Below, in pieces: positions 7,442-30,326 of a stretch of DNA of 32,000 bases; within the stretch, counting starts at the first letter, position 1, and each line of letters begins with the position of its first letter. The translations under genes and the position numbers were made by a program. The notes beneath the pieces were generated by a model. It saw only the letters and a list, made by a program, of their open reading frames with translations, was not told the origin of the DNA and made no database searches. This DNA comes from Candidatus Electrothrix sp. GW3-4 (GTDB taxonomy: Bacteria > Desulfobacterota > Desulfobulbia > Desulfobulbales > Desulfobulbaceae), in the NCBI RefSeq assembly GCF_037902255.1, contig NZ_CP147990.1, positions 3,120,001 to 3,152,000 of the forward strand. Reading direction: 5' to 3'.

Positions 7442-8311
7442 ATGAAAACGAGACAATACGTATCCTTTGATTGGGCAATGAAACGACTCCTGCGCTCAAA
7501 AGCCAATTTTGGCGTCCTGGCAGGTTTTTTATCCGAACTCCTCAGGGAAAACATCACGATCCTTGAAGTTCTGGAGTCTGAAGCCAACAAGGACTTTAAA
7601 AAGCATAAAAAAAATGTGCTTGATCTGAAGGTGAAAAACTCCAGGGATGAGATTATCATCATTGAAGTCCAGTATGATCGCGACTACTCTTTTTTCCATC
7701 GCATCCTCTGGGGTACATCAAGGGTGGTGACCGAGCATCTTCACGAGGGGGATGATTATTTTCGGGTTCAAAAAGTCATCTCTGTTAACCTTATCTACTT
7801 CGATTTAGGGGAAGGCGAGGATTATATCTATCATGGCGTTACCTCGTTTCGAGGTATCCATAAAAACGACGTGTTGCGGCTCAGAGCCAATGAAAAAAAA
7901 GATCTCGGCAAAGACAGTGTTCACAAGATCTTCCCGGAGTATTACCTGATAAAAATAAATCGCTTTGATGATCTGGCAAAAGACACCCTTGACGAATGGA
8001 TATACTTTTTAAAAAACGAAGAGATTAAACCGGAGTTTACTGCCCAGGGCCTACAAGAGGCAGGAAGGGTTCTCGCCTATACCAAACTCAACAAAGAAGA
8101 ACAAATTGATTATAATAATTACATTGATACTCGTCGCCGAAGGGATAGTGAGCTTCGAACGAAATTCAGTGAAGGGCTTGAGGAAGGTTTGGAAAAGGGT
8201 TTGAAAAAAGGGCGGCTGGAAACTGCACGATCAATGAAAAAAGAGGGGATTCCTGGCGAAATTATCCAAAGATGCACCGGGCTTTCTCTTGACGAAATCA
8301 ATGGGCTCTGA
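7442..8311 (+). CDS. Rpn/YhgA-like PD-(D/E)XK nuclease family protein (recombination-promoting nuclease, annotated elsewhere as putative transposase)
   Basis: The N-terminus YVSFDWAMKRLL, the core DLKVKN...IIIIEVQ and the conserved C-terminal helix-rich tail are typical of the TIGR01784/Rpn family, recalled from memory. Confidence 0.7.
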   Translation: MKTRQYVSFDWAMKRLLRSKANFGVLAGFLSELLRENITILEVLESEANKDFKKHKKNVLDLKVKNSRDEIIIIEVQYDRDYSFFHRILWGTSRVVTEHLHEGDDYFRVQKVISVNLIYFDLGEGEDYIYHGVTSFRGIHKNDVLRLRANEKKDLGKDSVHKIFPEYYLIKINRFDDLAKDTLDEWIYFLKNEEIKPEFTAQGLQEAGRVLAYTKLNKEEQIDYNNYIDTRRRRDSELRTKFSEGLEEGLEKGLKKGRLETARSMKKEGIPGEIIQRCTGLSLDEINGL

Positions 8312-20760: not shown

Positions 20761-21138
20761 TTAGGCAAGAATCAAGAGCTCCTCTCTCTCCCCGATAAAA
20801 TTATAAAAGGCACATTCTCTGCATTCTTGCTCCTTATGTAAGCAAAGGCAGGACATATGGCCTTTATAGAGAGTCTGACGCAGGACCCAACAGCAGCGTC
20901 CCCCATTTTTGCCATGATGAATGCCATCAGTCTCGCCTTGAACACTTACCGGACAAAGGCCGTGGCGTAATACATTTTCCCCTCCTGGTTCCCTGCCGCA
21001 TCCATTGAATTCCCAACAATTTTCCTGCCTGTCATTCTCTATACTACCGATCATACTCCTCTCGATCACACTACTCTCAATCACACTCCTATTGACCATA
21101 CTCTCTATCATACTTTTGTTCCGTCTATGCTTTAGCAA
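20761..21138 (-). CDS. small Cys-rich protein with paired CW motifs (two-CW-domain-like); start codon uncertain
   Basis: NCWEFNGCGREPGG and GGRCCW motifs plus a CRECAF end. The N-terminal 30 codons are degenerate DNA tandem repeats (SMIE/SVIE). The ORF start is TTG and several internal ATGs are possible starts. Confidence 0.5.
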   Translation of the reverse strand: MLKHRRNKSMIESMVNRSVIESSVIERSMIGSIENDRQENCWEFNGCGREPGGENVLRHGLCPVSVQGETDGIHHGKNGGRCCWVLRQTLYKGHMSCLCLHKEQECRECAFYNFIGEREELLILA

Positions 21139-21263: not shown

Positions 21264-21286
21264 GGGCTTGGGGCTTGGGGCTTGGG
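21264..21286 (+). repeat. G-quadruplex-type motif GGGCTTGGGGCTTGGGGCTTGGG
   Basis: Four G3-4 runs separated by CTT, read directly. The motif sits in a G-rich stretch at 21250-21340. Confidence 0.6.
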
Positions 21287-21371: not shown

Positions 21372-21407
21372 GAACTCATTCCCTCTTATAGAGGGTGGTG
21401 GCAAAAC
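21372..21407 (-). repeat. degenerate terminal CRISPR repeat
   Basis: gaactcattccctcttatagagggtggtggcaaaac aligns to the consensus repeat through the CCCTCTT..ATAG.GGT.GGTG...AAC core. It lies one spacer length (33 nt) from repeat 1. Confidence 0.6.
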
Positions 21408-21410
21408 CAA

Positions 21411-21441
21411 TATAGAGGCGACCGGTCGGTCGCCCCTACAG
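21411..21441. repeat. 31-nt palindromic element, copy A (tatagaggcgaccggtcggtcgcccctacag)
   Basis: 28/31 identical to 24077-24107 by manual alignment. It fills the slot between the degenerate repeat and repeat 1. Confidence 0.75.
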
Positions 21442-22183
21442 TCTTAATACCCTCTTCATAGGGTAGGTGTTCCAACGGCGATTTCCGTTGCTTTAATCTC
21501 AACCCTAAAGGAGTCTTAATACCCTCTTCATAGGGTAGGTGTTCCAACCGCAAAAAAAACAGCTATTTTGGACAAAGTTAATTAGTCTTAATACCCTCTT
21601 CATAGGGTAGGTGTTCCAACCAGGGCTTTGTGGGTTTGCTAGCACAACAACCTGTCTTAATACCCTCTTCATAGGGTAGGTGTTCCAACCTATCTTCCAC
21701 ATCCCGGGGGGGATAACCCCAAGCGTCTTAATACCCTCTTCATAGGGTAGGTGTTCCAACGAAATCCAAGATGTAACAGTAAACACGAATGCAAAGTCTT
21801 AATACCCTCTTCATAGGGTAGGTGTTCCAACGTAAATTAGGAGTGGATGTAACTCTTATCATGGGTGTCTTAATACCCTCTTCATAGGGTAGGTGTTCCA
21901 ACCGGATGAAAATCCGTATCAGTTGGCGACAGCGTCTTAATACCCTCTTCATAGGGTAGGTGTTCCAACTTTCAGGATGTCAGGAAACGGAAACGCAGTA
22001 TTATGTCTTAATACCCTCTTCATAGGGTAGGTGTTCCAACATTTTGGGATTTTTCCCAAGCATGATTAGCAACGAGAGTCTTAATACCCTCTTCATAGGG
22101 TAGGTGTTCCAACAACAGTATCTGCGTCCGGTCAGATCTGTTCTTTTGTCTTAATACCCTCTTCATAGGGTAGGTGTTCCAAC
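21441..22183 (-). CRISPR. CRISPR array with 11 identical 36-nt repeats and 10 spacers
   Basis: The plus-strand repeat is gtcttaataccctcttcatagggtaggtgttccaac, starting at 21441, 21513, 21585, 21654, 21725, 21796, 21867, 21934, 22005, 22078 and 22148. Spacer lengths are 36, 36, 33, 35, 35, 35, 31, 35, 37 and 34 nt, and all spacers are unique. I infer minus-strand transcription because the degenerate repeat is at the low-coordinate end and the reverse complement, GTTGGAAC...ATTAAGAC, has the canonical GTT...AAGAC form. Confidence 0.95.
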
Positions 22184-22216
22184 AGCGGCCCTGCATCAAA
22201 CAATACTGAATTCAGC

Positions 22217-22245
22217 AGATTATGCAAGTAAAATTTTACCATCAA
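22217..22245 (-). promoter_or_regulatory. candidate leader promoter for the CRISPR array
   Basis: The minus strand reads TTGATG-N17-TAATCT. The -10 element ends 34 nt upstream of the leader-proximal repeat. The call rests on pattern match only. Confidence 0.35.
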
Positions 22246-22590
22246 AACGGGTTTTGAAAGTTGTGGATTTTGAACCGCCATTTTCAACCCTCCAATAAAG
22301 CGATATGCGACATTGTGACCAATCAGTCATAATCGGTACAGCATCCTGTACATCCTCTTTCCTGCCCAAGAAAATTCCCTTTCCCTTCAAGGCAGTAGCA
22401 CCAGAACGGGAATTATGATGAAAAATGACACAAGGAAAAATCAACGCAAAATAATTTGATGTCCGGCCCTGTTTCCCTTCTTTCCCCTCTTTCTTTTTCT
22501 CCTCTATATTATACCTGCTCCTCTGGCCTGGGCAAAGAAAAAGGGGCAGGTCCCTTGATTTCCCCAACCAGGCAGGAAAAACAGCCTGAA

Positions 22591-22760
22591 CCTAAGGACT
22601 CCTCTCAGTTGTCCCTAGGGAGTTCTTCATCTCGAACCTAGGGAGTTCTTCATCTCGAACCTAGGGAGTTTCCTCTCTCGAACCTAGGGAGTTTCCTCTC
22701 TCGAACCTAGGGAGTTCTTTATCTCGAACCTAGGGAGTTTCCTCACTCGCCCCTAGGGAC
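22591..22760. repeat. 23-nt tandem repeat block (6 good units, a degenerate leading unit and a partial trailing unit)
   Basis: Units start at 22614, 22637, 22660, 22683, 22706 and 22729, with consensus cctagggagtt[cttcat/tcctct]ctcgaa. Two variants occur in the order A A B B A' B'. Each unit contains the CCTAGG palindrome. Confidence 0.9.
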
Positions 22761-22870
22761 AAGTCCCTCCTCCTCCTTGTCCACCAAAAAAACACGGTCC
22801 GCTCCACGATTTTTTCTCTTCTCGCACAAGATTATTCCGCAGCAACAGGACGTTACCCCACATATTCCCC

Positions 22871-22899
22871 TTGACAAGCCCTGCCCTCCTCCGTAGGAT
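22871..22899 (+). promoter_or_regulatory. candidate sigma70-type promoter of the HU-like gene
   Basis: TTGACA-N17-TAGGAT, read directly. The -10 element ends 57 nt upstream of the ATG at 22957. Confidence 0.45.
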
Positions 22900-22956
22900 A
22901 CCTCCCATGCGGTTTGCCCGGTGTATCAAGGAGTTCAATTCAACAGGAGAAGAACC

Positions 22957-24027
22957 ATGTCCACTGTTCAATGTCGCGTCGAAAGAAATACCCTGACCAC
23001 CCCTCCTTCCTATAGCCTCCGCTTCATCCCCCACAATATCTATGGTTATGAAGAGCTGGCCGATGAGATCGTGCGGGACAATCCCTCCCTGAACAGGGAT
23101 CAGGTCCTGGTGATGCTGCGGGCCCGGGATCAGACCGTGCAACGACTGCTCATCAACGGCAACCAGGTCACCCTGGAAGACGCCTTCAGCTACCGCCTCT
23201 CCTTTAAGGCCCGCCTCAACGAACCCAATGCGCCGCTGCCCTCAGCCGAGGAATGTCTGCGGGTCAAGATCTCGGCCTCCCGGCCCTTTATCAAGGAGGT
23301 GCGGCAAAAGGCCCGGCTGGAACGCCTGCCTGCCGAGGAAAAGCTGCCCCTGATCACCTCCACCGAAGACACGGAGCTGGGCCTGAACGATGTCCTGTAT
23401 GACCAGGGAGTACTCCGGCTGATGGGCAATGATCTCCTCTTTGACCGCAATGAAGCCGACTGTGGCTGCACCCTGACCGGGACCCGCAGTGGCGCTGCAG
23501 TCCAGCACCGCTTTGCGGCCATCTCCAACACAGAGGTCCTGATCGTGCCGACTATCCCGGCCCAGGAGGCGGCCTGGAACAACGAGTACCGGCTTGCCCT
23601 GGCCACCCGCTTTACCGAACACGGGACCCTGCGCACCGGCACCTATCGAGGCAGGCTCCGCACCCCCCTGGAGGTGAGCGGCTTTGACCATCCCAATATG
23701 GAGGTGGGGATCCTGACCGGCAAGGCCACGACGCCCCACGTCCTTATCACCGGCGGCAGCCTGCATGGGGAGGGGATGATCCGGGTCCAGGCCGTGTTGG
23801 ACGCCCGGGATGGGCATATCCTCTGTAACCTGTTGGATATGGAGGAAGAGGGGGCAGCGGGCGATCCGGTGGCAATGCGGGCCAATGGGACCTATACCCT
23901 GGCCGGTTTTAGCGGGGCCCTGGTGAGCAGCCTCAACCTGCGGGTGGATGACTACGAGGCCCTGCATGCCTTGATCCGCAACGACTATGCTGGCCAATTG
24001 GTGGATGTGTTGGCGGTGAGGCCCTAG
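22957..24027 (+). CDS. putative DNA-binding protein with an HU-like N-terminal domain and DUF4469-like Ig-fold region(s)
   Basis: I prefer the ATG at 22957 (AGGAGA 7 nt upstream). The N-terminus VERNTLT...Y.LRF....Y.YEELADEI...NPSLNRDQVLVML...Q.LLINGNQVTLEDAFSYRLSF matches the pattern of HU-fold fusion proteins, and the following ITSTED...GVLRLMGNDLLFD resembles DUF4469. Both calls are from memory only. Confidence 0.45.
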   Translation: MSTVQCRVERNTLTTPPSYSLRFIPHNIYGYEELADEIVRDNPSLNRDQVLVMLRARDQTVQRLLINGNQVTLEDAFSYRLSFKARLNEPNAPLPSAEECLRVKISASRPFIKEVRQKARLERLPAEEKLPLITSTEDTELGLNDVLYDQGVLRLMGNDLLFDRNEADCGCTLTGTRSGAAVQHRFAAISNTEVLIVPTIPAQEAAWNNEYRLALATRFTEHGTLRTGTYRGRLRTPLEVSGFDHPNMEVGILTGKATTPHVLITGGSLHGEGMIRVQAVLDARDGHILCNLLDMEEEGAAGDPVAMRANGTYTLAGFSGALVSSLNLRVDDYEALHALIRNDYAGQLVDVLAVRP

Positions 24028-24073
24028 GGGCAGACCTGCGTGGCTGCCCGGTTGGACTGAAGAGGGGCGAACC

Positions 24074-24109
24074 CACTGTAGGGGCGACCGGCCGGTCGCC
24101 CCTACAGTG
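24074..24109. repeat. perfect 36-nt palindrome (cactgtaggggcgaccgg/ccggtcgcccctacagtg), copy B of the palindromic element; probable bidirectional terminator
   Basis: The 18-nt arms are exact reverse complements. It lies between the convergent stops at 24027 and 24121. Confidence 0.8.
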
Positions 24110-24120
24110 TCCCTGCCCCC

Positions 24121-27100
24121 CTACAGGGGCAGGATATGCACTTCTTCCCGGGAGGGATGGATCCCCTTGAGAAAGAGACCATTACGGCCGTCAATGGAGA
24201 TCGGGTCACCAAAGCGGATCCGCACCCCATTGGTCACGGCATACTCCCGGCTTTCAAAGACCTGGAGGTCCCGGCACCCCACCACACAGGTCTTTTCCAG
24301 GCGGGTGGCCACCACCGAGGCATGGGAGGTCTGACCGCCCCGGGCAGTAAGGAGCCCTTCTGCCATGGAGATCTCCCGGATATCCTCAGGCACGGTATCC
24401 TGCCGGATCAGGATCAGAGGGACATCGGGCTGCTCCTCTCTCAGCTGCTGGATGTTCTCTTCTGTGAACACGGCCAGACCAGAAAGGGCAGAACCGCTCA
24501 CCCCGATCCCCTTGCCCAGGATACTCCCCTGCAGCTCCTCTGATTCGCGAAAGACGTGGAAACGTTCCTTCTTTTTCACCGTGATCATATCCCGGGTCTG
24601 GAGGATGTAGAGATCCTCTGCCGCAGGCCCTTCAAAGGTGAACTCGATCTCCTGGGGATTCCACTCCTTGGTATAGACCAGGTCCCGGGCAATGCTGAGC
24701 AGACGGCTATAGATGGCCGGGAACTTCCGTTCCAGGGTCTGTTCCACCGGTCTCCCGTCCAGTTCAGCCTGCTCCACAGAGACCGGGTAGCTGTTGACCA
24801 GGCCGGAAACGATATCCTCCCCCTGGTCCTCAGAGGCATAATCCCCCCACAGGGCCACCCGTCGCACCTTGCGATAAGGGTGGGCAGTAAACAGGACCCC
24901 ACTGCCCGCCTCTGCACTCCTATTGCCATAGACCATGGACTGGACAATCACGGCCGTGCCCCAATCATCGGACACATCCATCAGGTTGCGATACTGGGTT
25001 GCCTTGGCCGTATTCCAGGAGGAGAGCACCATTTCCACGGCCCCGATCAACTGCAACCAGGGGTCCTCAGGAGCGCTGCGCCCGCGCCTGCGCAAGGCAG
25101 CCTGGTAATCCAAGGCCAACTCCCGCATCTGTGGTGCGGAAAACTGCCGTTTCAGACGCACGCCATGCTGTTCTTTATGGCTGTTCATCAGCCCCTGGAA
25201 CTCCTCCCGTTCCATACCACCGGCCATGGCCCAGGACTGGAGAAAACGACGATAATTATCCCAGAGGAAATACTCTTTCTCCGGGTGATGCGCGACCAAC
25301 TCTTCCACCAGCTCCTCATTGAGCCCCACGTTATGGATGGTGGTCATCATCCCAGGCATGGACATGGCTGACCCGGAACGGACAGAGAGCAACAGGGGGT
25401 CTCTGGGTGAACCAAAACTCCGGTTCGTCTGCTCCTCCAGACTGGTAATAGCCCCCCGTACCCGTTGCATAAACTCATCACGGGCCCGTTTAAAGCCCTG
25501 CACGGCCCGCCAGCAGCGAAAGATCTCGGTGGTGATGATAAAGGCTGGCGGCACCGGTTTACCGTCCCCGGCCAAGATCATCAGGTTAAAGCCCTTATTG
25601 CCCAGATGGATCAGATTATGGGTGCGGAGATTTTCATTATACAAGGAGGAGATGGTCTTTTCCGGATTATAGGTCATGAGCAGGTCAATGGTCCGGGCAT
25701 CCAGGATATCCTTTTGCGCCTCCAGGGTATGGATGATACGGGTAATAAAGTTATCCAGATGTTGCAGACCAAAGGTACTGGCGATAAGGTCCCGGAAAAA
25801 GGACTCGGACAGGCGATGGACCGTGGCCGCCATATCCTCATCCTCACAGAGCGAACGGTACTTGGTCAGGAGATTCTTCTGCCCTGTCTGGGGAATAATT
25901 ATAGAGAGATTATTCTGATGAACATTGGTGTAATAGGCATAGATCACATCCTTGACCCCTTCAGAGAGGCCGCGAACAATGTCCAGATGCTGGGTATAGG
26001 TAAAGCGCTTCATGGTGATGGACGAACTAAGCAGACTGGTATAGGTATCCAGCCGCCGACTGGTGATCCCATCCACCTTCAGGGCCCGGAGAAGGAGGAG
26101 CAGGCAACGGGAGATGCGGATAAAGGTGGCCTGGGTGATAAAGCCCAGGTTGATGGAGCGGGTCAGGCGTTCTATATAGATATTGGCCAGGTTCTCCAGA
26201 CGGAAGCTCAGGCCCAGGGCATCAAATTTCCGTTCCGAATAGCGCCCATAGACCGAGGGGATATCCACGGCAATATGCCTTTTATAATAGATCTCCTCCC
26301 TGGGTTCAAACCGTTCCTCAGAGAGAATAATCTCCTTTAACCGCTCCAACTGGGTGAGCAGGGCATCAAGACAGGCAAAGATATCCCCCTTCTCCAGCAC
26401 ATCCAACAGGCCCTCCATCTCAGGAAAACCGCCTTGGGCCGCATCATGCAGTTGATGCCGCAGCTCTTGCATACTCAGGCTGTACTTATGCTGGAGGAGT
26501 TTGAACATCCTCACCAAGAGGGTAAAACGCCTGCGCTCCCCGAGCGAGATATCCTCCTGCTGGCTGAGCCAGGCATGACGTTCCTTCTTGGGCCAATCCA
26601 GGACCTCATCCATGGAGGAGATCTCCCGCTCCTGCTGGATCCGTTTGGTCAGGACATGCAATTCATCAATAAACGGGCCTTCGGTGACCACCTGGGCAAG
26701 GATCTCATCAGGGAGAAAGGGGCGGAGATGCCTCTTCTCCAGGGTCAGCCAGAAGACAAAGATCCCCTTGATAAAGCCGACAATCAGGTTGGAGGACTCC
26801 ACATGAGATTGCTTGCGCAGGAAGTGGATCAGCACATCATGGCGCTTATGCATCTCGTCCAGTTCAGTCGAGACATCCCGCAACTCCCCTTCTGCCCCGA
26901 TTTCGTTAAAGAAGACCGGCATCAACTTGGTGAACTGCTTGGCCAGATTATAGATAGGGAAGATGGGATGATTGAGCAGATCGGTGATGTCGCGTTGAAA
27001 GAGATCCGTATCCTTGACGCAGGTCCCGGAAAGCTTGATATTGATGATCAGGGCCGAGAACAGGGTGGAACACCATTTGGGTTCCTGCATAATCAGACTC

Positions 27101-28374
27101 AACCAGCCCCGGATATTGGCGAGATGGGCCGGGTTGGTGATGGGCTGCCAATCCTCGTCCACCCCCATGACATTGGCGTACTGAAAGCCAAAGCGAACCG
27201 TCTCAAAGAGAAAGGCCTCCACCAGACGCGAGTTATTGCGGCGAAAGACCTCGCCCCCAATCACCTGAATACATTGCAGGGAGGTATGGGGATATTTGCG
27301 CACATTGGCCTTAAGGAGGTGGAAGGTGGTGACAAAGAACTGTTCTATCTCCTCAAAGGTCTGCTTGCGAATGAGCTGGATCAGCGAGCGGTTGATCTCA
27401 CGCAGGCTTTCCTCATGGATCAGATAGAGGCCCGAGGTGTCCATGATCCGAAAGAGAAAGAAGAGCTTGCGGTTCTCGGCAAACGAGGCCTCCTGTTCAT
27501 CGTCGGTGTCTGGGGTTAACTGCTTGGGAATCTCCCGATAGAACCGGACAATATCGATATGGGCGGGCAGCTCCAGAAGCTCGCTCAGGGCCTGATAGGC
27601 ATCTGCCTCAATATCGATGATATCAAGGGCTGCCAGATGCTCTTGAAAACGGTCATGGGAGATGGCCGTGAGCAGCGATCCTGCCTGCCATCCGCTGCAA
27701 AACGAACCACATTGGGTCTCAAACCAGGGCTGAGGGTTTTCTTCACTGAGCCAATACGTATAATTCAGCCGGAGGATCTTTTTCATCAGCCGGGCCAGGG
27801 GGCCGCAGGAGAAGGAGATACCCTCATGGTTGCGCCCGAGTTTCATCAGATGCAAGGCCATCTTCTTCATGGGATGATGTCCCTGGACCATATACATCAT
27901 CACGCTTTCATCAATCTCATCCAGCCGAACCAATCGTTCAAAGAAGCTGTCCAGCTGTTCCTGATAGAGCTCAAATGAATCGATGTGCAACGAGGCGATG
28001 AGCTTATCAGCATAGGCCAACATAGCCTCCATGGTCATGGAGACCACCTTGCCGTTTTTCTTCGACTCTGTCAGGGCATCAAGAAAAACCCCTGCAAACA
28101 GAGAAAAACAGGCAGGCCCCAGTTCATGCCTTCGATATTGATTGAAATTTTTAAGGACAAAGGGGCGCAGTTCCAGGATAATCATCTGCCAGTTCCGATA
28201 GGGATGGCTGATCTCGTAGAGCAGGTGTTCCAGCTTGGTTGCCACCCCCTGATAGCGGGCTACAACCTCCTGGAGGACCCTGAAGCGTTCCGGGATCTCC
28301 ACAACACTGGCGGTTTCCTCTTTATTGGCCTCCCAGGCCTTGGATGTAAACACTGGAGATTGTTGATCAGTCAT
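24121..28374 (-). CDS. 1417-aa protein: uncharacterised ~900-aa N-terminal region fused to a PPDK/PEP-synthase-type ATP-grasp and phosphohistidine swivel domain, with no PEP/pyruvate TIM barrel
   Basis: The C-terminal ~510 aa (about 24121-25630) carries LGNKGFNLMILAG, SVRSGSAMSMPGMMTTIHNVGLN and TARGGQTSHASVVATRLEKTCVVG, with the catalytic His codon at 24324-24322. The protein ends about 55 aa after the His domain. GAAGAGG lies upstream of the ATG. Confidence 0.8.
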   Translation of the reverse strand: MTDQQSPVFTSKAWEANKEETASVVEIPERFRVLQEVVARYQGVATKLEHLLYEISHPYRNWQMIILELRPFVLKNFNQYRRHELGPACFSLFAGVFLDALTESKKNGKVVSMTMEAMLAYADKLIASLHIDSFELYQEQLDSFFERLVRLDEIDESVMMYMVQGHHPMKKMALHLMKLGRNHEGISFSCGPLARLMKKILRLNYTYWLSEENPQPWFETQCGSFCSGWQAGSLLTAISHDRFQEHLAALDIIDIEADAYQALSELLELPAHIDIVRFYREIPKQLTPDTDDEQEASFAENRKLFFLFRIMDTSGLYLIHEESLREINRSLIQLIRKQTFEEIEQFFVTTFHLLKANVRKYPHTSLQCIQVIGGEVFRRNNSRLVEAFLFETVRFGFQYANVMGVDEDWQPITNPAHLANIRGWLSLIMQEPKWCSTLFSALIINIKLSGTCVKDTDLFQRDITDLLNHPIFPIYNLAKQFTKLMPVFFNEIGAEGELRDVSTELDEMHKRHDVLIHFLRKQSHVESSNLIVGFIKGIFVFWLTLEKRHLRPFLPDEILAQVVTEGPFIDELHVLTKRIQQEREISSMDEVLDWPKKERHAWLSQQEDISLGERRRFTLLVRMFKLLQHKYSLSMQELRHQLHDAAQGGFPEMEGLLDVLEKGDIFACLDALLTQLERLKEIILSEERFEPREEIYYKRHIAVDIPSVYGRYSERKFDALGLSFRLENLANIYIERLTRSINLGFITQATFIRISRCLLLLLRALKVDGITSRRLDTYTSLLSSSITMKRFTYTQHLDIVRGLSEGVKDVIYAYYTNVHQNNLSIIIPQTGQKNLLTKYRSLCEDEDMAATVHRLSESFFRDLIASTFGLQHLDNFITRIIHTLEAQKDILDARTIDLLMTYNPEKTISSLYNENLRTHNLIHLGNKGFNLMILAGDGKPVPPAFIITTEIFRCWRAVQGFKRARDEFMQRVRGAITSLEEQTNRSFGSPRDPLLLSVRSGSAMSMPGMMTTIHNVGLNEELVEELVAHHPEKEYFLWDNYRRFLQSWAMAGGMEREEFQGLMNSHKEQHGVRLKRQFSAPQMRELALDYQAALRRRGRSAPEDPWLQLIGAVEMVLSSWNTAKATQYRNLMDVSDDWGTAVIVQSMVYGNRSAEAGSGVLFTAHPYRKVRRVALWGDYASEDQGEDIVSGLVNSYPVSVEQAELDGRPVEQTLERKFPAIYSRLLSIARDLVYTKEWNPQEIEFTFEGPAAEDLYILQTRDMITVKKKERFHVFRESEELQGSILGKGIGVSGSALSGLAVFTEENIQQLREEQPDVPLILIRQDTVPEDIREISMAEGLLTARGGQTSHASVVATRLEKTCVVGCRDLQVFESREYAVTNGVRIRFGDPISIDGRNGLFLKGIHPSREEVHILPL

Positions 28375-28428: not shown

Positions 28429-29040
28429 TTACAGAAGGTTTTGACGGCAGGCTTCCGTATAGACAAACGGTGATCTTCTTTTAAGAAAGTCGGTTGTACA
28501 AAAGCCTTCTATATATTCCTGATAATGCCGAGATCGCATTGCTCTGTTTCCGGCATCATCCAGACGAAGACGATCAATTGTTTCCTGTATCTGACGTGTT
28601 ATACTGAACGGCAAGCTCGGATTCGGATAGATCCGTCCGCTGACAAGCTCCAGAGAAAACCAGTTGTCTTTAATGTGAAACGGATCAAGAACATCATCAT
28701 ATCTCCCTTTACGACTGTTCATTATTGAGCAGGCCAGCCGATAATTGCTCCACTCGTGAGCAAGGCGGGCAGAAGTCCCGACTTTGACGGTAAAATGATC
28801 GGCAGACACGCCGCCAGTGACGCGCTCAATATAGACGGCAAGATAGGCACAACACCCCTTGTAACTGACATGCAGATCATCAAGGCAGTCGCGCCAGCAA
28901 GGTTTCAGTGTTATTCCTTCCGGCACAGGCTGATCTGGAGCAATGCCTTTTTTCTGTAGAAAAGCAAGTCCTTTCCGCCGTACCTTGGCATCAAAGTCAG
29001 CCGGTTCCGGTTGTTCAGTCACAGGAATCATCAAAGCCAC
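28429..29040 (-). CDS. ptuB: PtuB-like HNH-family endonuclease (TIGR02646-like), Septu-type partner
   Basis: The core DHFTVKV....LAHEWSNYRLACSIMNSRKG is typical of the TIGR02646/PtuB HNH-like family. The start overlaps the preceding ATPase gene by 10 nt. Confidence 0.65.
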   Translation of the reverse strand: MALMIPVTEQPEPADFDAKVRRKGLAFLQKKGIAPDQPVPEGITLKPCWRDCLDDLHVSYKGCCAYLAVYIERVTGGVSADHFTVKVGTSARLAHEWSNYRLACSIMNSRKGRYDDVLDPFHIKDNWFSLELVSGRIYPNPSLPFSITRQIQETIDRLRLDDAGNRAMRSRHYQEYIEGFCTTDFLKRRSPFVYTEACRQNLL

Positions 29041-30326
29041 CCTCTTTTCTCCGCCACAAAACGCCAGCGCATCCAGAAAGGGTCTGTGTCACCCAGGACA
29101 TTTCTCAACTCCTGGTCAAGCTGTTTGGCCTGAGCCGCATCAAAGGAGGTGTCACTCAGGGCAACCGCTGCTTTCCCAAGAACCTCTTCCGCTTCCGCTG
29201 ATCGGGCACTGGACAAATCAAACGCCTCACTGGTCAGCCAGCTTGAGGCGTCACCCCGCCGGATCAAAGGCCGCCTACTCAAGCTTACGCCGGGAATTCC
29301 GCCGTTGTCGCCTCCGAAAAGATCGAAGTCAAACCAAGCATCTTTATCGTGATCAAAAATCGGTTCCACCGAGGCCATAACAAGGGGCGAATGGGTGGAC
29401 GCGACAAGCTGCACCTTAGCATGTTCTGTCAGGGAGTGAACAACATCAAGCAGTGGCCTGATAATCCGGCGCTGCCATTTCGGATGAAGATGCGCTTCAA
29501 TCTCATCAATAAGAAAAACGGCCTGTGAAGTTGTTTCTTCGTCAAGAAGCCTGCTTGCCTTGACATGTTCTTCCCAGGTCCAGACAAGCAGATAGGCCAG
29601 CGCGAGAATTCGACGCATTCCCGCTGAAGCGTGCAGGACAGGAACAGATTGGCCGTACGGCATCTTGAGGGTCGGAATGTCCCGCGGGTCATCCAGGCTG
29701 ATCCGCACCAGCTCACCTGGAATGATTTTTTCCCCACTAGAAGGAGAGAGTTTTTCCAGCACTGCGCAAAGGCGCTTGAAGGCAGCACCGTTTTCTTTCT
29801 GCCAGCCGGACCAGTCCGCAATCAGCCCGTTACAGAGCAACCCCCGCTGATCATCCCGAAGACCATCCCAGACCTCTCTTGCATTAAATACATAGGCCGA
29901 AGGTCGCTCCTGAACATCGGAATTCCCTTTCCTGCGCCAATAATTACGGGCCGGATCCCAGACCGCGAAACTGCCGTCAACCTGGGCATAAAGAATCAGC
30001 CCCGGATTTGAAGGGCGACCCGCCTTACCTGCCCATGCCTGTGCTTTACGGTCAAATGTGCTGATATAACTGATAGGTTTTGATTTTGCGGTGAATGTAA
30101 ACTCAATAGATGCTTTCCCGGTTTCATGCGGCTTTGCCATCAGCCCTGCAGGAAGCCGGGGATTGACTTCTGCTGGCCATTTTTTAGTAAGCGACCACCA
30201 AATGATATCCAGCAGAAAACTTTTTCCCAGCCCATTGTCACCGGTCAGCAAGTTCAGCCGCTCGCCGAATTCCAGCTGCAAAGCAGGAGCCGGGCCTACA
30301 TTGTTCATGTTCAGTTGCTTAATCAT
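29031..30326 (-). CDS. ptuA: PtuA-like AAA/ABC-type ATPase, Septu-type
   Basis: Walker A LTGDNGLGKS near the N-terminus, Walker B/D-loop VFLIDEIEAHLHP, and an H-loop-like ASTHSP. It is paired with the HNH-like gene. Confidence 0.65.
   Translation of the reverse strand: MIKQLNMNNVGPAPALQLEFGERLNLLTGDNGLGKSFLLDIIWWSLTKKWPAEVNPRLPAGLMAKPHETGKASIEFTFTAKSKPISYISTFDRKAQAWAGKAGRPSNPGLILYAQVDGSFAVWDPARNYWRRKGNSDVQERPSAYVFNAREVWDGLRDDQRGLLCNGLIADWSGWQKENGAAFKRLCAVLEKLSPSSGEKIIPGELVRISLDDPRDIPTLKMPYGQSVPVLHASAGMRRILALAYLLVWTWEEHVKASRLLDEETTSQAVFLIDEIEAHLHPKWQRRIIRPLLDVVHSLTEHAKVQLVASTHSPLVMASVEPIFDHDKDAWFDFDLFGGDNGGIPGVSLSRRPLIRRGDASSWLTSEAFDLSSARSAEAEEVLGKAAVALSDTSFDAAQAKQLDQELRNVLGDTDPFWMRWRFVAEKRGWL

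What the first reader, a model, noticed from the sequence alone, without database searches (positions are those of the whole stretch)
21411..24109. Two copies of one palindromic element bracket the CRISPR/repeat/HU-like module, and one copy occupies the oldest spacer slot
The sequence tatagaggcgaccggtcggtcgcccctacag at 21411-21441 is 28/31 identical to tgtaggggcgaccggccggtcgcccctacag at 24077-24107 by my alignment. The second copy forms the core of a perfect 36-nt palindrome between convergent genes. The first copy fills the 33-nt interval between the degenerate terminal repeat and the first perfect repeat, so it sits exactly where a spacer would be. I see three readings. It could be a REP- or terminator-like genomic element that happens to abut the array. 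It could be an ancient self-derived spacer. Or the two copies could mark the ends of a 2.7-kb module containing the array, leader, 23-nt repeats and HU-like gene, acquired or moved as a unit.
Basis: seen in the sequence. Interest (0 to 1): 0.65.

Follow-up and report, generated by a model that had tools for sequence, protein, structure and literature searches.

The report
REP hairpin capping a CRISPR array
The two palindromes are copies of a common genomic hairpin repeat (a GTAG-tagged REP), not the ends of a mobile module, but the copy at the old end of the CRISPR array is not there by accident: all 12 array ends and remnants of this repeat family that I recovered stop against such a hairpin, which looks like a transcription terminator.

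Summary
GGCGACCGGNCGGTCGCCCCTACAG occurs at 21417-21441 and 24083-24107 (0 expected by chance), and the second copy is the core of a perfect 36-nt palindrome (24074-24109) between convergent genes. A degenerate repeat (21372-21407) leaves a 33-nt slot that copy 1 fills.

The "2.7-kb module" reading fails.
- The element is a GTAG-tagged REP whose core occurs in many phyla and flanks RAYT transposase genes there.
- HU-like paralogs, each with their own GAACCTAGG tandem repeats, occur elsewhere without an array or REP.
- Sister arrays with the same leader lack the HU-like gene.

"Happens to abut the array" also fails. In 12 recovered contigs, all array ends or remnants of this repeat family (about 8 distinct junctions) have the last repeat touching a GTAG-tagged GC hairpin. 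The arrays share no spacers, and the DNA beyond the hairpin differs. On the transcribed strand, 4 of 6 distinct intact-array caps are hairpin plus T5-7.

Best reading: a REP-family hairpin serves as the array's 3' cap. It would terminate the pre-crRNA and occupy, folded, the guide position of the extraneous crRNA. How it got there (insertion, replacement or REP-derived spacer) is unresolved. Function is inferred, not shown.

The parts
21372..21407 (-). Degenerate (decayed) CRISPR repeat beyond the cap. In the transcript sense it reads GTTTTGCCACCACCCTCTATAAGAGGGAATGAGTTC.
   Evidence: Semi-global alignment to the repeat scores 9, and 10 of 6192 background tiles reach that score. Local alignment gives p<0.0005 against shuffles. 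It shares the CACC-ACC 1-nt deletion with the remnant in L137.
21408..21440 (-). Copy 1, the array cap. It is a GTAG-tagged REP hairpin (minus strand: TGTAGGGGCGACC-GACC-GGTCGCCTCTATA, then TTGGTTTTG) that fills the 33-nt slot between the last functional repeat and the decayed repeat.
   Evidence: Exact core match. Terminator-like, with a 13-bp stem and a T-rich tail. The RNA fold of the 52-nt array 3' end is -25.4 kcal/mol, z -4.8. The 33-nt cap folds about 5 SD more stably than ordinary spacers. It is 96.6% identical over 29 nt to the caps of L127/L130.
21441..22183 (-). CRISPR array: 11 identical 36-nt repeats (plus strand GTCTTAATACCCTCTTCATAGGGTAGGTGTTCCAAC; transcript sense GTTGGAAC...ATTAAGAC) and 10 spacers of 31-37 nt.
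   Evidence: The polarity follows from the decayed or variant repeat at the left end, the conserved AT-rich leader on the right, and the same ATTAAGAC 3' handle in a cas1-cas2-leader-array type III locus, L141.
22184..22535 (-). Leader region with a promoter-like site (22535-22508, minus strand) pointing into the array.
   Evidence: Homology to sister-array leaders: 22176-22338 is 73% identical to L131, 22198-22282 is 82% identical to L127/L129, and 22411-22465 is 77% identical to L127. It is 79% identical over 157 nt to L137. Promoter-like site TTGCCC-16-TATAAT.
22614..22759 (+). 23-nt tandem repeats (6.3 copies, core GAACCTAGGGAG). They belong to the upstream region of the HU-like gene, not to the CRISPR unit.
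   Evidence: Similar GAACC(T/A)AGG repeats lie upstream of the HU-like paralogs in L122 and L123, which have no array.
22957..24027 (+). HU-like / DUF4469 gene (356 aa). It is an independent gene unit, and its stop codon TAG (24025-24027) lies inside the tag of the first REP unit.
   Evidence: Weak Pfam DUF4469 hit. 520 homologs, mostly cable bacteria, some carrying HU_HIG / HU-DNA_bdg / Bac_DNA_binding domains. The paralog loci lack both array and REP.
24024..24049 (+). REP unit of subfamily 2 (CTAGGGGCAGACCTGCGTGGCTGCCC).
   Evidence: 96% identical over 25 nt to GTAGGGGCAGACCTGCGTGTCTGCCC in Ca. Electrothrix communis, L125 2920-2945. Forms a hairpin.
24074..24109 (.). Copy 2: a perfect 36-nt palindrome, a double-headed REP of subfamily 1 (GTAGGGGCGACCGGCCGGTCGCCCCTAC).
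   Evidence: The same-strain Logan contig L121 breaks inside it.
24112..24133 (.). Third hairpin of the cluster (CCTGCCCC-CCTACA-GGGGCAGG). On the minus strand it reads TGTAGGGGGGCAGG, and its TAG is the stop codon of the PPDK-like gene (24121-24123).
   Evidence: The fold of 24010-24140 gives three hairpins, -42.2 kcal/mol, z -4.95. ORF end coordinate.

Best explanation
Both copies belong to one family of GTAG-tagged repetitive extragenic palindromes (REPs; GTAGGGGCGACC-loop-GGTCGCCC) that is common in cable-bacterium-like Desulfobulbaceae. Its core also occurs in many other phyla, where inverted copies flank REP-associated tyrosine transposase (RAYT) genes.

Copy 2 is the middle unit of a three-hairpin, BIME-like cluster that fills the 93-nt gap between two convergent genes. 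It most likely acts as a two-way terminator or 3'-end stabiliser.

Copy 1 is a 3' cap of the CRISPR array. The array is transcribed on the minus strand from the leader at 22184-22535. The cap lies immediately after the last functional repeat, as it does at all recovered ends of sister arrays. I infer two roles. First, the GC hairpin with its U-rich tail stops the pre-crRNA before it runs into the co-directional genes downstream. Second, because it takes the guide position behind the extra (last) repeat, the extraneous crRNA made from that repeat has a self-folded, truncated guide.

The array, leader and cap travel or persist together. The HU-like gene with its 23-nt repeats is a separate unit that happens to lie next to the leader here.

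Shown: the sequence family, its distribution, the strict cap-repeat association, and the predicted structures. Inferred: termination, the extraneous-crRNA effect, and how the REP reached that position.
For: REP identity:
- GTAG tag plus GC palindrome.
- In L077, inverted copies flank an ORF that matches NCBIfam REP-associated tyrosine transposase (E 9e-20).
- RAYT homologs occur in 5 of 120 loci. My estimate for a single-copy gene in random 8-kb windows is about 0.2-0.3.
- 11 of 120 loci have inverted pairs.
- GTAG-tagged perfect hairpins give 14 strand hits in 105 kb of related DNA, against about 0.4 in total in shuffled controls.
- These features match the family definition in PMC3733652.

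Cap association:
- All 9 contigs found with the CRISPR repeat end against a GGGCGA(C/T)C-loop-G(G/A)TCGCCC hairpin. These represent 6 distinct junctions, counting the fossil end in L130.
- Two further remnants occur in L136 and L137. L137 uses the other REP subfamily.
- The arrays share no spacers, and the DNA beyond the cap differs between them.
- 0 of 120 internal spacers are REP-like, and the caps fold 3-5 SD more stably than spacers.
- None of the 120 unrelated REP loci has an array next to the REP.

Terminator:
- 4 of 6 distinct intact-array caps are followed by T5-7 on the transcribed strand, against 7 of 146 pan-phylum copies.
- The window's cap passes the terminator scan.
- Co-directional HigB and MNT genes start right after the caps in L129 and L130.
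- Polarity is supported.

Concept precedent: extraneous crRNAs, and their suppression by terminators or guide-sequestering hairpins (PMC6610086, PMC12080349, PMC13187072).

Not a module.
Against: - The source genome could not be scanned, so the copy number there is unknown. Only two subfamily-1 copies and two related units lie in the 32 kb.
- No RAYT gene was found in the window or in any cable-bacterium locus.
- The window's own U-tail is weak (UCUAUAUUGGUUUUG), and the L134, L136 and L137 caps have none.
- Covariation support is minimal: one compensatory pair in one lineage, not above shuffles.
- Most sister arrays come from a single metagenome (Ga0316189), so the number of truly independent lineages is small.
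- A repeat remnant beyond the cap in the window and in L137 is not predicted by a simple 'terminator next to the array' model.
- There are no expression data.
Confidence: 0.7

Rival explanations
1. REP-derived spacer. Cas1-Cas2 once integrated a chromosomal REP fragment as an ordinary spacer. Because it folds into a terminator, everything older (downstream) was no longer transcribed and decayed. This would leave the REP 'spacer' as the apparent end of the array, with a decayed repeat beyond it.
For: - The element is placed exactly at the repeat boundary.
- The slot is 33 nt, within the 31-37 nt spacer range.
- Significant repeat remnants lie beyond the cap in the window (p<0.0005) and in L137 (p about 0.01).
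- The junctions vary by 0-1 nt, one cap is inverted, and a second REP subfamily is used. All of this suggests recurrent events.
- This would also explain why REP-like spacers are never seen internally.
Against: - The L137 slot is only about 21-25 nt and its upstream repeat is truncated by 4 nt, which does not look like integration.
- Most sister arrays show no remnant beyond the cap.
- The remnants in the window and L137 share the same 1-nt deletion, so the decayed repeat is ancestral while the caps differ. That fits replacement of the cap better than independent acquisitions.
- No PAM or protospacer logic could be tested.
Confidence: 0.2
2. Targeted REP insertion or replacement. RAYT-mobilised REPs, or REP-to-REP gene conversion, repeatedly land at the outer edge of the terminal CRISPR repeat because of a site or structure preference. 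Any terminator effect is a by-product.
For: - Two different REP subfamilies and both orientations occur at the same position.
- The junctions are slightly variable.
- REPs are known to sit downstream of transcription units and to be linked to RAYTs (PMC3733652; L077).
Against: - No RAYT was found in any cable-bacterium DNA held here.
- None of the 120 REP loci from other taxa shows a REP next to an array.
- T-tails are enriched at caps relative to REPs in general, which suggests selection for termination and not neutral insertion.
Confidence: 0.15
3. The two copies are the terminal repeats of a 2.7-kb unit (array, leader, 23-nt repeats and HU-like gene) that was acquired or moved as one block.
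For: Two similar palindromes bracket the block, with about 84% similarity over 43 nt including 11 nt of left flank.
Against: - The element is a widespread multi-copy family.
- Copy 1 matches the sister-array caps better than it matches copy 2.
- HU-like paralogs with their own tandem repeats exist without an array or REP.
- Arrays with a homologous leader and cap are followed by other genes (Cas_NE0113 in L127 and L137, msrAB-like in L131) and not by an HU-like gene.
- No transposase lies inside the block. Target duplications were not looked for.
Confidence: 0.03
4. Pure coincidence: an ordinary REP or terminator that happens to lie next to this one array.
For: REPs are common in intergenic DNA downstream of transcription units (PMC3733652).
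Against: All 12 recovered array ends or remnants show the same juxtaposition, in register, with unrelated flanks. Density outside arrays is only about one per 15-20 kb.
Confidence: 0.02

Closest known systems
GTAG-tagged REP / BIME elements and their RAYT transposases (Di Nocera 2013, PMC3733652; Nunvar 2010, PMC2817692)
   Same: Both are 20-40 nt GC-rich palindromes with a GTAG tag. They are extragenic, lie downstream of genes and between convergent ORFs, occur singly, as inverted pairs and in clusters, and inverted copies flank a RAYT gene (L077).
   Different: - Copy number in the source genome is unknown, and no RAYT has been found yet in cable-bacterium DNA.
- The same stem (GGGCGACC/GGTCGCCC) recurs in very distant phyla.
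- One position, the 3' edge of a CRISPR array, is occupied systematically. I found no description of this for REPs in the searches I ran.
Mechanisms that suppress extraneous crRNAs (Liao 2019, PMC6610086; Feussner 2025, PMC12080349; Migur 2026, PMC13187072)
   Same: A structure sits at the array boundary next to the 'extra' repeat. [quoted passage not shown]
   Different: - The published cases are class 2 systems (II-A, II-C, V-A, VI). In II-C the structures lie upstream of the array.
- Here the array is type III-associated (class 1). The hairpin is downstream of the last repeat and is itself the guide.
- It is recruited from a genomic REP family.
- Nothing has been tested experimentally.
Rho-independent terminators
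   Same: A GC-rich 8-10 bp stem, a 3-5 nt loop and a U5-7 tail (in four of the six distinct sister caps), at the end of a transcription unit and upstream of co-directional genes.
   Different: The window's tail is weak, and three caps have none. The GTAG tag and the family-wide sequence identity are not features of ordinary terminators.
Conserved trailer-end ('anchor') spacers of CRISPR arrays
   Same: The sequence occupies the oldest slot, is shared between related arrays, and is followed (in the window and L137) by a decayed repeat.
   Different: - It is not foreign-derived and belongs to a host repeat family.
- It is shared by arrays that share no other spacer and lie at different loci.
- Its sequence varies in the loop and even in REP subfamily, while its position is constant.

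Membership tests
GTAG-tagged REP (repetitive extragenic palindrome) | Short (20-40 nt) GC-rich palindrome able to form a stem-loop | tested here: met
   Copy 1 has a 13-bp stem. Copy 2 is a perfect 36-nt palindrome. The array 3' ends carrying the caps fold as RNA at -16 to -25 kcal/mol.
GTAG-tagged REP (repetitive extragenic palindrome) | GTAG tetranucleotide tag at one end | tested here: met
   GTAGGGGCGACC... is present on the minus strand of copy 1 and on both strands of copy 2. The definition comes from PMC3733652.
GTAG-tagged REP (repetitive extragenic palindrome) | Many dispersed copies in the same genome | tested here: inconclusive
   Only 32 kb of the source genome is available. It holds 2 subfamily-1 copies plus 2 related units. 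Related DNA is enriched: 14 strand hits in 105 kb against about 0.4 in total in shuffles.
GTAG-tagged REP (repetitive extragenic palindrome) | Extragenic, mostly downstream of genes, between convergent or unidirectional ORFs | tested here: met
   Copy 2 lies between convergent genes. Copy 1 lies at the 3' end of the array's transcription unit. Extra copies in L129, L130 and L134 lie at gene ends.
GTAG-tagged REP (repetitive extragenic palindrome) | Cognate RAYT gene flanked by inverted REPs | tested here: inconclusive
   Met in other phyla: the L077 ORF 4555-5157 lies between inverted copies and matches NCBIfam REP_Tyr_transpos at E 9e-20, 71 bits, below the 80-bit cutoff. RAYT homologs occur in 5 of 120 loci. 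None was found in the window or in L121-L141.
GTAG-tagged REP (repetitive extragenic palindrome) | Occurs as inverted pairs or clusters (REPIN/BIME) | tested here: met
   Three-hairpin cluster at 24024-24133. Inverted doublet in L125 2920-2982. 11 of 120 loci have inverted pairs.
CRISPR spacer | Flanked on both sides by repeats, with a length in the array's spacer range | tested here: met
   There is a perfect repeat on one side and a decayed repeat (p<0.0005) on the other. The slot is 33 nt, against a range of 31-37 nt. This does not hold for most sister arrays.
CRISPR spacer | Unique, invader-derived sequence that differs between independently evolving arrays | tested here: not met
   The sequence belongs to a host repeat family. 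It is present at the end of every sister array, although no other spacer is shared.
Rho-independent terminator | GC-rich stem-loop followed directly by a U-tract, in the direction of transcription | tested here: inconclusive
   The window's cap passes the simple scan (13-bp stem, then TTGGTTTTGC), but its tail is weak. Four of the six distinct intact-array caps have T5-7. L134, L136 and L137 have none.
Rho-independent terminator | Actually stops RNA polymerase | not testable with these tools
   This needs Term-seq, 3' RACE or a reporter assay.
ecrRNA-suppressing structure (as in type II-C arrays) | Stable hairpin involving the guide region next to the array's extra repeat | tested here: met
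   The cap begins 0-1 nt after the last repeat's ATTAAGAC handle in most arrays and folds by itself. It is 3-5 SD more stable than the 120 real spacers. The position of the handle is inferred from class 1 crRNA processing and from L141.
ecrRNA-suppressing structure (as in type II-C arrays) | Reduces production or activity of the extraneous crRNA | not testable with these tools
   This needs small-RNA sequencing or interference assays.
Mobile module bounded by terminal repeats | The block is present or absent as one unit in related genomes, and the end repeats are specific to the element | tested here: not met
   The HU-like unit occurs without an array or REP. The array, leader and cap occur without the HU-like gene. 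The end repeats belong to a widespread family.

The most novel reading that the evidence does not exclude
In cable bacteria and their relatives, a REP-family hairpin has been domesticated as a dedicated 3' cap of type III-associated CRISPR arrays. It terminates the pre-crRNA and turns the unavoidable extraneous crRNA from the last repeat into a self-folded, harmless species. Leader, repeats and cap form a portable cassette whose spacer content can be replaced completely. This would be the first class 1 example of ecrRNA control and the first specific cellular role tied to a REP at a CRISPR locus.
Probability: 0.3. Interest if true: 0.6.

Novelty: new variant of a known kind. Interest (0 to 1): 0.45.

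Why it matters
REPs are abundant, but their functions are mostly conjectural, and a position-specific, conserved use at a CRISPR array end would be a concrete case of REP co-option. It would also extend the recent idea that arrays need a device to neutralise the extraneous crRNA from class 2 systems to a type III-associated class 1 array, using a different device: a terminator hairpin that is itself the guide. In practice, it warns array-annotation tools that the 'oldest spacer' can be a host repeat, and it gives a simple marker for the transcriptional polarity of these arrays.

Tried and rejected
- Rfam gathering scan of the whole window: no family matched.
- Genome-wide count in the source genome: not possible.
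- The exact HU-like protein is on record only on a 1.4-kb Logan contig of the same strain, so the window could not be extended.
- Orthologous-locus synteny failed. The closest HU-like homologs (60-66% identity) lie at different loci with different neighbours. Their CZB genes are only about 25% identical, and there is no PPDK-like gene. L123 also has a 100-N gap in its upstream repeats.
- Covariation test on seven caps: one compensatory pair, not above shuffles.
- Search for arrays abutting REPs in the 120 unrelated loci: none.
- A type III locus from another organism with the same ATTAAGAC handle (L141) has no hairpin after its last repeat, so the cap is not a general type III feature.
- Viral-contig scans for one window spacer and for the cap-repeat junction: no hits.
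- Contigs of the two closest Cas_NE0113 homologs gave remnants, not full new arrays. The P0211 contigs held no arrays.
- A first fuzzy-regex script timed out.
- The held literature has nothing on cable-bacterium CRISPR arrays or on terminators capping class 1 arrays.


Full report
**1. The observation**

The quoted sequences are in the window. The 25-nt core GGCGACCGGNCGGTCGCCCCTACAG matches exactly at 21417-21441 and at 24083-24107 (and, because it is palindromic, on the other strand at 24076-24100). None is expected in 100 dinucleotide shuffles.

Copy 2 is the core of a perfect 36-nt palindrome, 24074-24109, which folds as a 16-bp stem. It lies between the HU-like/DUF4469 gene (22957-24027, +) and a 1417-aa PPDK-like gene (24121-28374, -).

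The CRISPR array has 11 identical 36-nt repeats (21441-22183) and 10 spacers of 31-37 nt.

A decayed repeat lies at 21372-21407. Its alignment score is 9, reached by 10 of 6192 background tiles, and p<0.0005 against shuffles. This leaves a 33-nt slot (21408-21440) that copy 1 fills.

Three refinements:
- The first perfect repeat begins at G 21441.
- The similarity between the two copies runs about 11 nt further left, into the decayed repeat.
- Copy 2 is not alone. 24024-24133 folds into three GTAG/CTAG-tagged hairpins (z -4.95). The stop codons of both convergent genes lie inside the tags (24025-24027 and the complement of 24121-24123).

**2. What the element is**

The 146 matches share one layout: a hairpin followed by CCTACA, which on the other strand reads TGTAGG plus hairpin. 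This is the architecture of GTAG-tagged REPs as defined in PMC3733652.

In L077 (Aggregatilineales), two inverted copies flank a 200-aa ORF that matches NCBIfam 'REP-associated tyrosine transposase' (E 9e-20, though 71 bits is below the 80-bit cutoff). RAYT homologs lie in 5 of the 120 loci. For a single-copy gene in random 8-kb windows I would expect about 0.2-0.3. Eleven loci have inverted pairs.

The window comes from a relative of cable bacteria. The HU-like protein has 520 homologs, and those that carry a source name are Candidatus Electrothrix or Electronema.

In 105 kb of related DNA, strict GTAG-tagged perfect hairpins give 14 strand hits, against about 0.4 in total in shuffled controls. 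They fall into two subfamilies:
- GTAGGGGCGACC...GGTCGCCC
- GTAGGGGCAGACC...GTCTGCCC. The second is seen as an inverted doublet in Ca. Electrothrix communis and as window unit 24024-24049.

I could not count copies in the source genome itself, and I found no RAYT in any cable-bacterium DNA held here. REP membership is therefore well supported by architecture and context, but two defining features remain inconclusive.

**3. The module reading fails**

The exact HU-like protein is on record only on a 1.4-kb contig of the same strain. That contig breaks in the 23-nt repeats and inside the palindrome.

The closest homologs (66%, 60% and 49% identity) sit at other loci with other neighbours. Those examined upstream (L122, L123) have their own GAACC(T/A)AGG tandem repeats, each has its own non-REP terminator hairpin downstream, and none of the loci has an array or REP.

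Conversely, arrays with a homologous leader are followed by other genes: a Cas_NE0113/TIGR02584 gene in L127 and L137, and an msrAB-like gene in L131. None is followed by an HU-like gene.

Copy 1 is closer to the caps of sister arrays (96.6% over 29 nt, with the same GGTC loop) than to copy 2.

**4. The unexpected part: the hairpin is a constant feature of the array end**

The single metagenome scan, using the core of the CRISPR repeat, found nine contigs.

In every one that contains the left (trailer) end, the outermost repeat touches a GGGCGA(C/T)C-loop-G(G/A)TCGCCC(C/T)TAC hairpin:
- L127/L130, L129 and L132/L133 have loops GGTC, GCC and GACC.
- L128/L131/L135 have a compensatory C:G to T:A stem change.
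- L134 has the hairpin in the inverted orientation next to a single repeat.
- L130 also holds a fossil: the L128-type hairpin followed by a truncated, decayed repeat.

Two more remnants came from contigs carrying Cas_NE0113 homologs:
- L136 has a truncated repeat followed by G and GTAGGGGCGACCGG....
- L137 (Ca. Electrothrix sp. GM3_4) has a solo repeat joined to a subfamily-2 hairpin.

Other observations bear on the association:
- The DNA beyond the hairpins is unrelated between the array groups.
- The arrays share no spacer at all, even where both flanks are 98-100% identical.
- None of the 120 ordinary spacers is REP-like.
- None of the 120 unrelated REP loci has an array next to the REP.
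- A type III array from another organism with the same 8-nt handle has no such hairpin.

The association is therefore specific to this array family and is not a coincidence.

**5. Polarity and likely function**

Several lines of evidence place the leader to the right of the window's array, so that transcription runs on the minus strand and the cap is at the 3' end:
- The right flanks of all arrays are AT-rich and homologous (73-98%).
- Variant repeats sit at the hairpin end, and newer variants spread from the other end.
- A cas gene lies beyond the right flank in L127.
- In L141, cas1-cas2-leader-array reads ...ATTAAGAC in the sense direction, the same handle as the reverse complement of the window's repeat.

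Read that way, four of the six distinct intact-array caps are a GC hairpin followed by T5-7, against 7 of 146 REP copies in general. The window's version passes the simple terminator scan but has a weak tail. Co-directional HigB and MNT genes begin right after the caps in L129 and L130.

The array 3' ends carrying the caps fold at -16 to -25 kcal/mol, and the caps themselves are 3-5 SD more stable than the real spacers.

I therefore infer that the hairpin terminates the pre-crRNA. In class 1 systems the guide follows its 8-nt repeat handle, so the last repeat would give an extraneous crRNA whose guide is the trailer. Here that guide is the self-folded, terminated hairpin. Suppression of extraneous crRNAs by terminators, guide-sequestering hairpins and terminal-repeat mutations has been described for class 2 systems (PMC6610086, PMC12080349, PMC13187072). 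In the held literature I found nothing comparable for class 1 arrays or for REPs. These functional steps are inference.

**6. How the REP got there is open**

The window (p<0.0005) and L137 (p about 0.01) have a repeat remnant directly beyond the cap. Both remnants carry the same 1-nt deletion (CACC-ACC for CACCTACC). This suggests an ancestral layout of repeat, cap, decayed repeat.

The caps in those two loci belong to different REP subfamilies, and the L137 slot is only about 21-25 nt with a truncated junction. The junctions elsewhere vary by 0-1 nt, and one cap is inverted.

This fits recurrent insertion or replacement of REPs at that edge. It also fits an old REP-derived spacer that silenced and doomed the older part of the array and was later replaced. 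I cannot separate these with the data at hand. Covariation is too thin to help.

**7. Verdict**

The element is a REP-family hairpin. The bracketing of a 2.7-kb 'module' is coincidental. The copy in the oldest slot is part of a conserved array-cap arrangement, whose most likely role is to terminate the array transcript and neutralise the extraneous crRNA.

It is a new variant of known kinds (REPs; array-boundary structures). Interest is moderate, and it depends on experiments and whole-genome surveys that I could not run.

Noticed in passing
window 22614-22759; L122 about 920-1110; L123 1990-2160: HU-like/DUF4469 paralogs carry tandem repeats of about 23 nt with a GAACC(T/A)AGG core just upstream of their promoter region, at unrelated loci. 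They could be binding sites for the HU-like protein itself or for a regulator.
   Followed up: partly
L128 vs L131; L132 vs L133; L127 vs L130: Arrays with 98-100% identical cap-side flanks (and identical leader flanks for L128/L131) share not one spacer, not even at the old end. This means whole-array turnover or cassette replacement between co-occurring strains or loci.
   Followed up: partly
L136 1-323; L137 595-935: Small genes (92 aa and 77 aa, antitoxin-like by eye) sit between a repeat or repeat remnant and the final capped repeat. They are protein-coding genes embedded in the tail of a CRISPR array.
   Followed up: no
window 24025-24027 and 24121-24123: The stop codons of both convergent genes are the TAG of a (G/C)TAG REP tag, so the REP units overlap the ends of the coding regions.
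   Followed up: yes
window 28429-30326 (-): A Septu defence pair is present: PtuA (PADLOC E 5e-180) and PtuB (E 1e-66; HNH). It lies directly upstream of the PPDK-like gene on the same strand.
   Followed up: partly
window 1-32000: Pfam scans of most of the larger ORFs in the 32-kb window found no cas genes, so the array looks orphan here. Sister arrays sit next to a Cas_NE0113/TIGR02584 ring-nuclease-family gene.
   Followed up: partly
L130 264-320 (oriented as): A fossil array end: the L128-type hairpin followed by ATCATAATACCCTTTTCATGGGG and then unrelated DNA. It lies about 940 nt from another capped array, so arrays come and go in the same neighbourhood.
   Followed up: yes
L110 2018-2983: Five REP copies at a spacing of 120-141 nt (one gap of 560 nt), with conserved flanks. 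This is a tandem array of a longer REP-containing unit in an unrelated genome.
   Followed up: no
window 21048-21114 and 21264-21286: There is a 15-nt tandem repeat (4.7 copies, CGATCATACTCCTCT) and GGGCTTG x3 in the non-coding stretch beyond the array's old end.
   Followed up: no
window 7442-8311; L134 1034-1858; L125 6217-7056: PD-(D/E)XK (PDDEXK_2, Rpn-like) putative transposase genes recur in these loci. In L134 the ORF (assigned by eye, not by Pfam) ends right at the cap next to the solo repeat.
   Followed up: no
L001-L120: The same 7-8 bp REP stem (GGGCGACC/GGTCGCCC) with a CCTACA tag recurs almost unchanged in very distant phyla. This is unusual for REPs, which are normally lineage-specific. 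It suggests a widely transferred or strongly constrained RAYT-REP pairing.
   Followed up: partly
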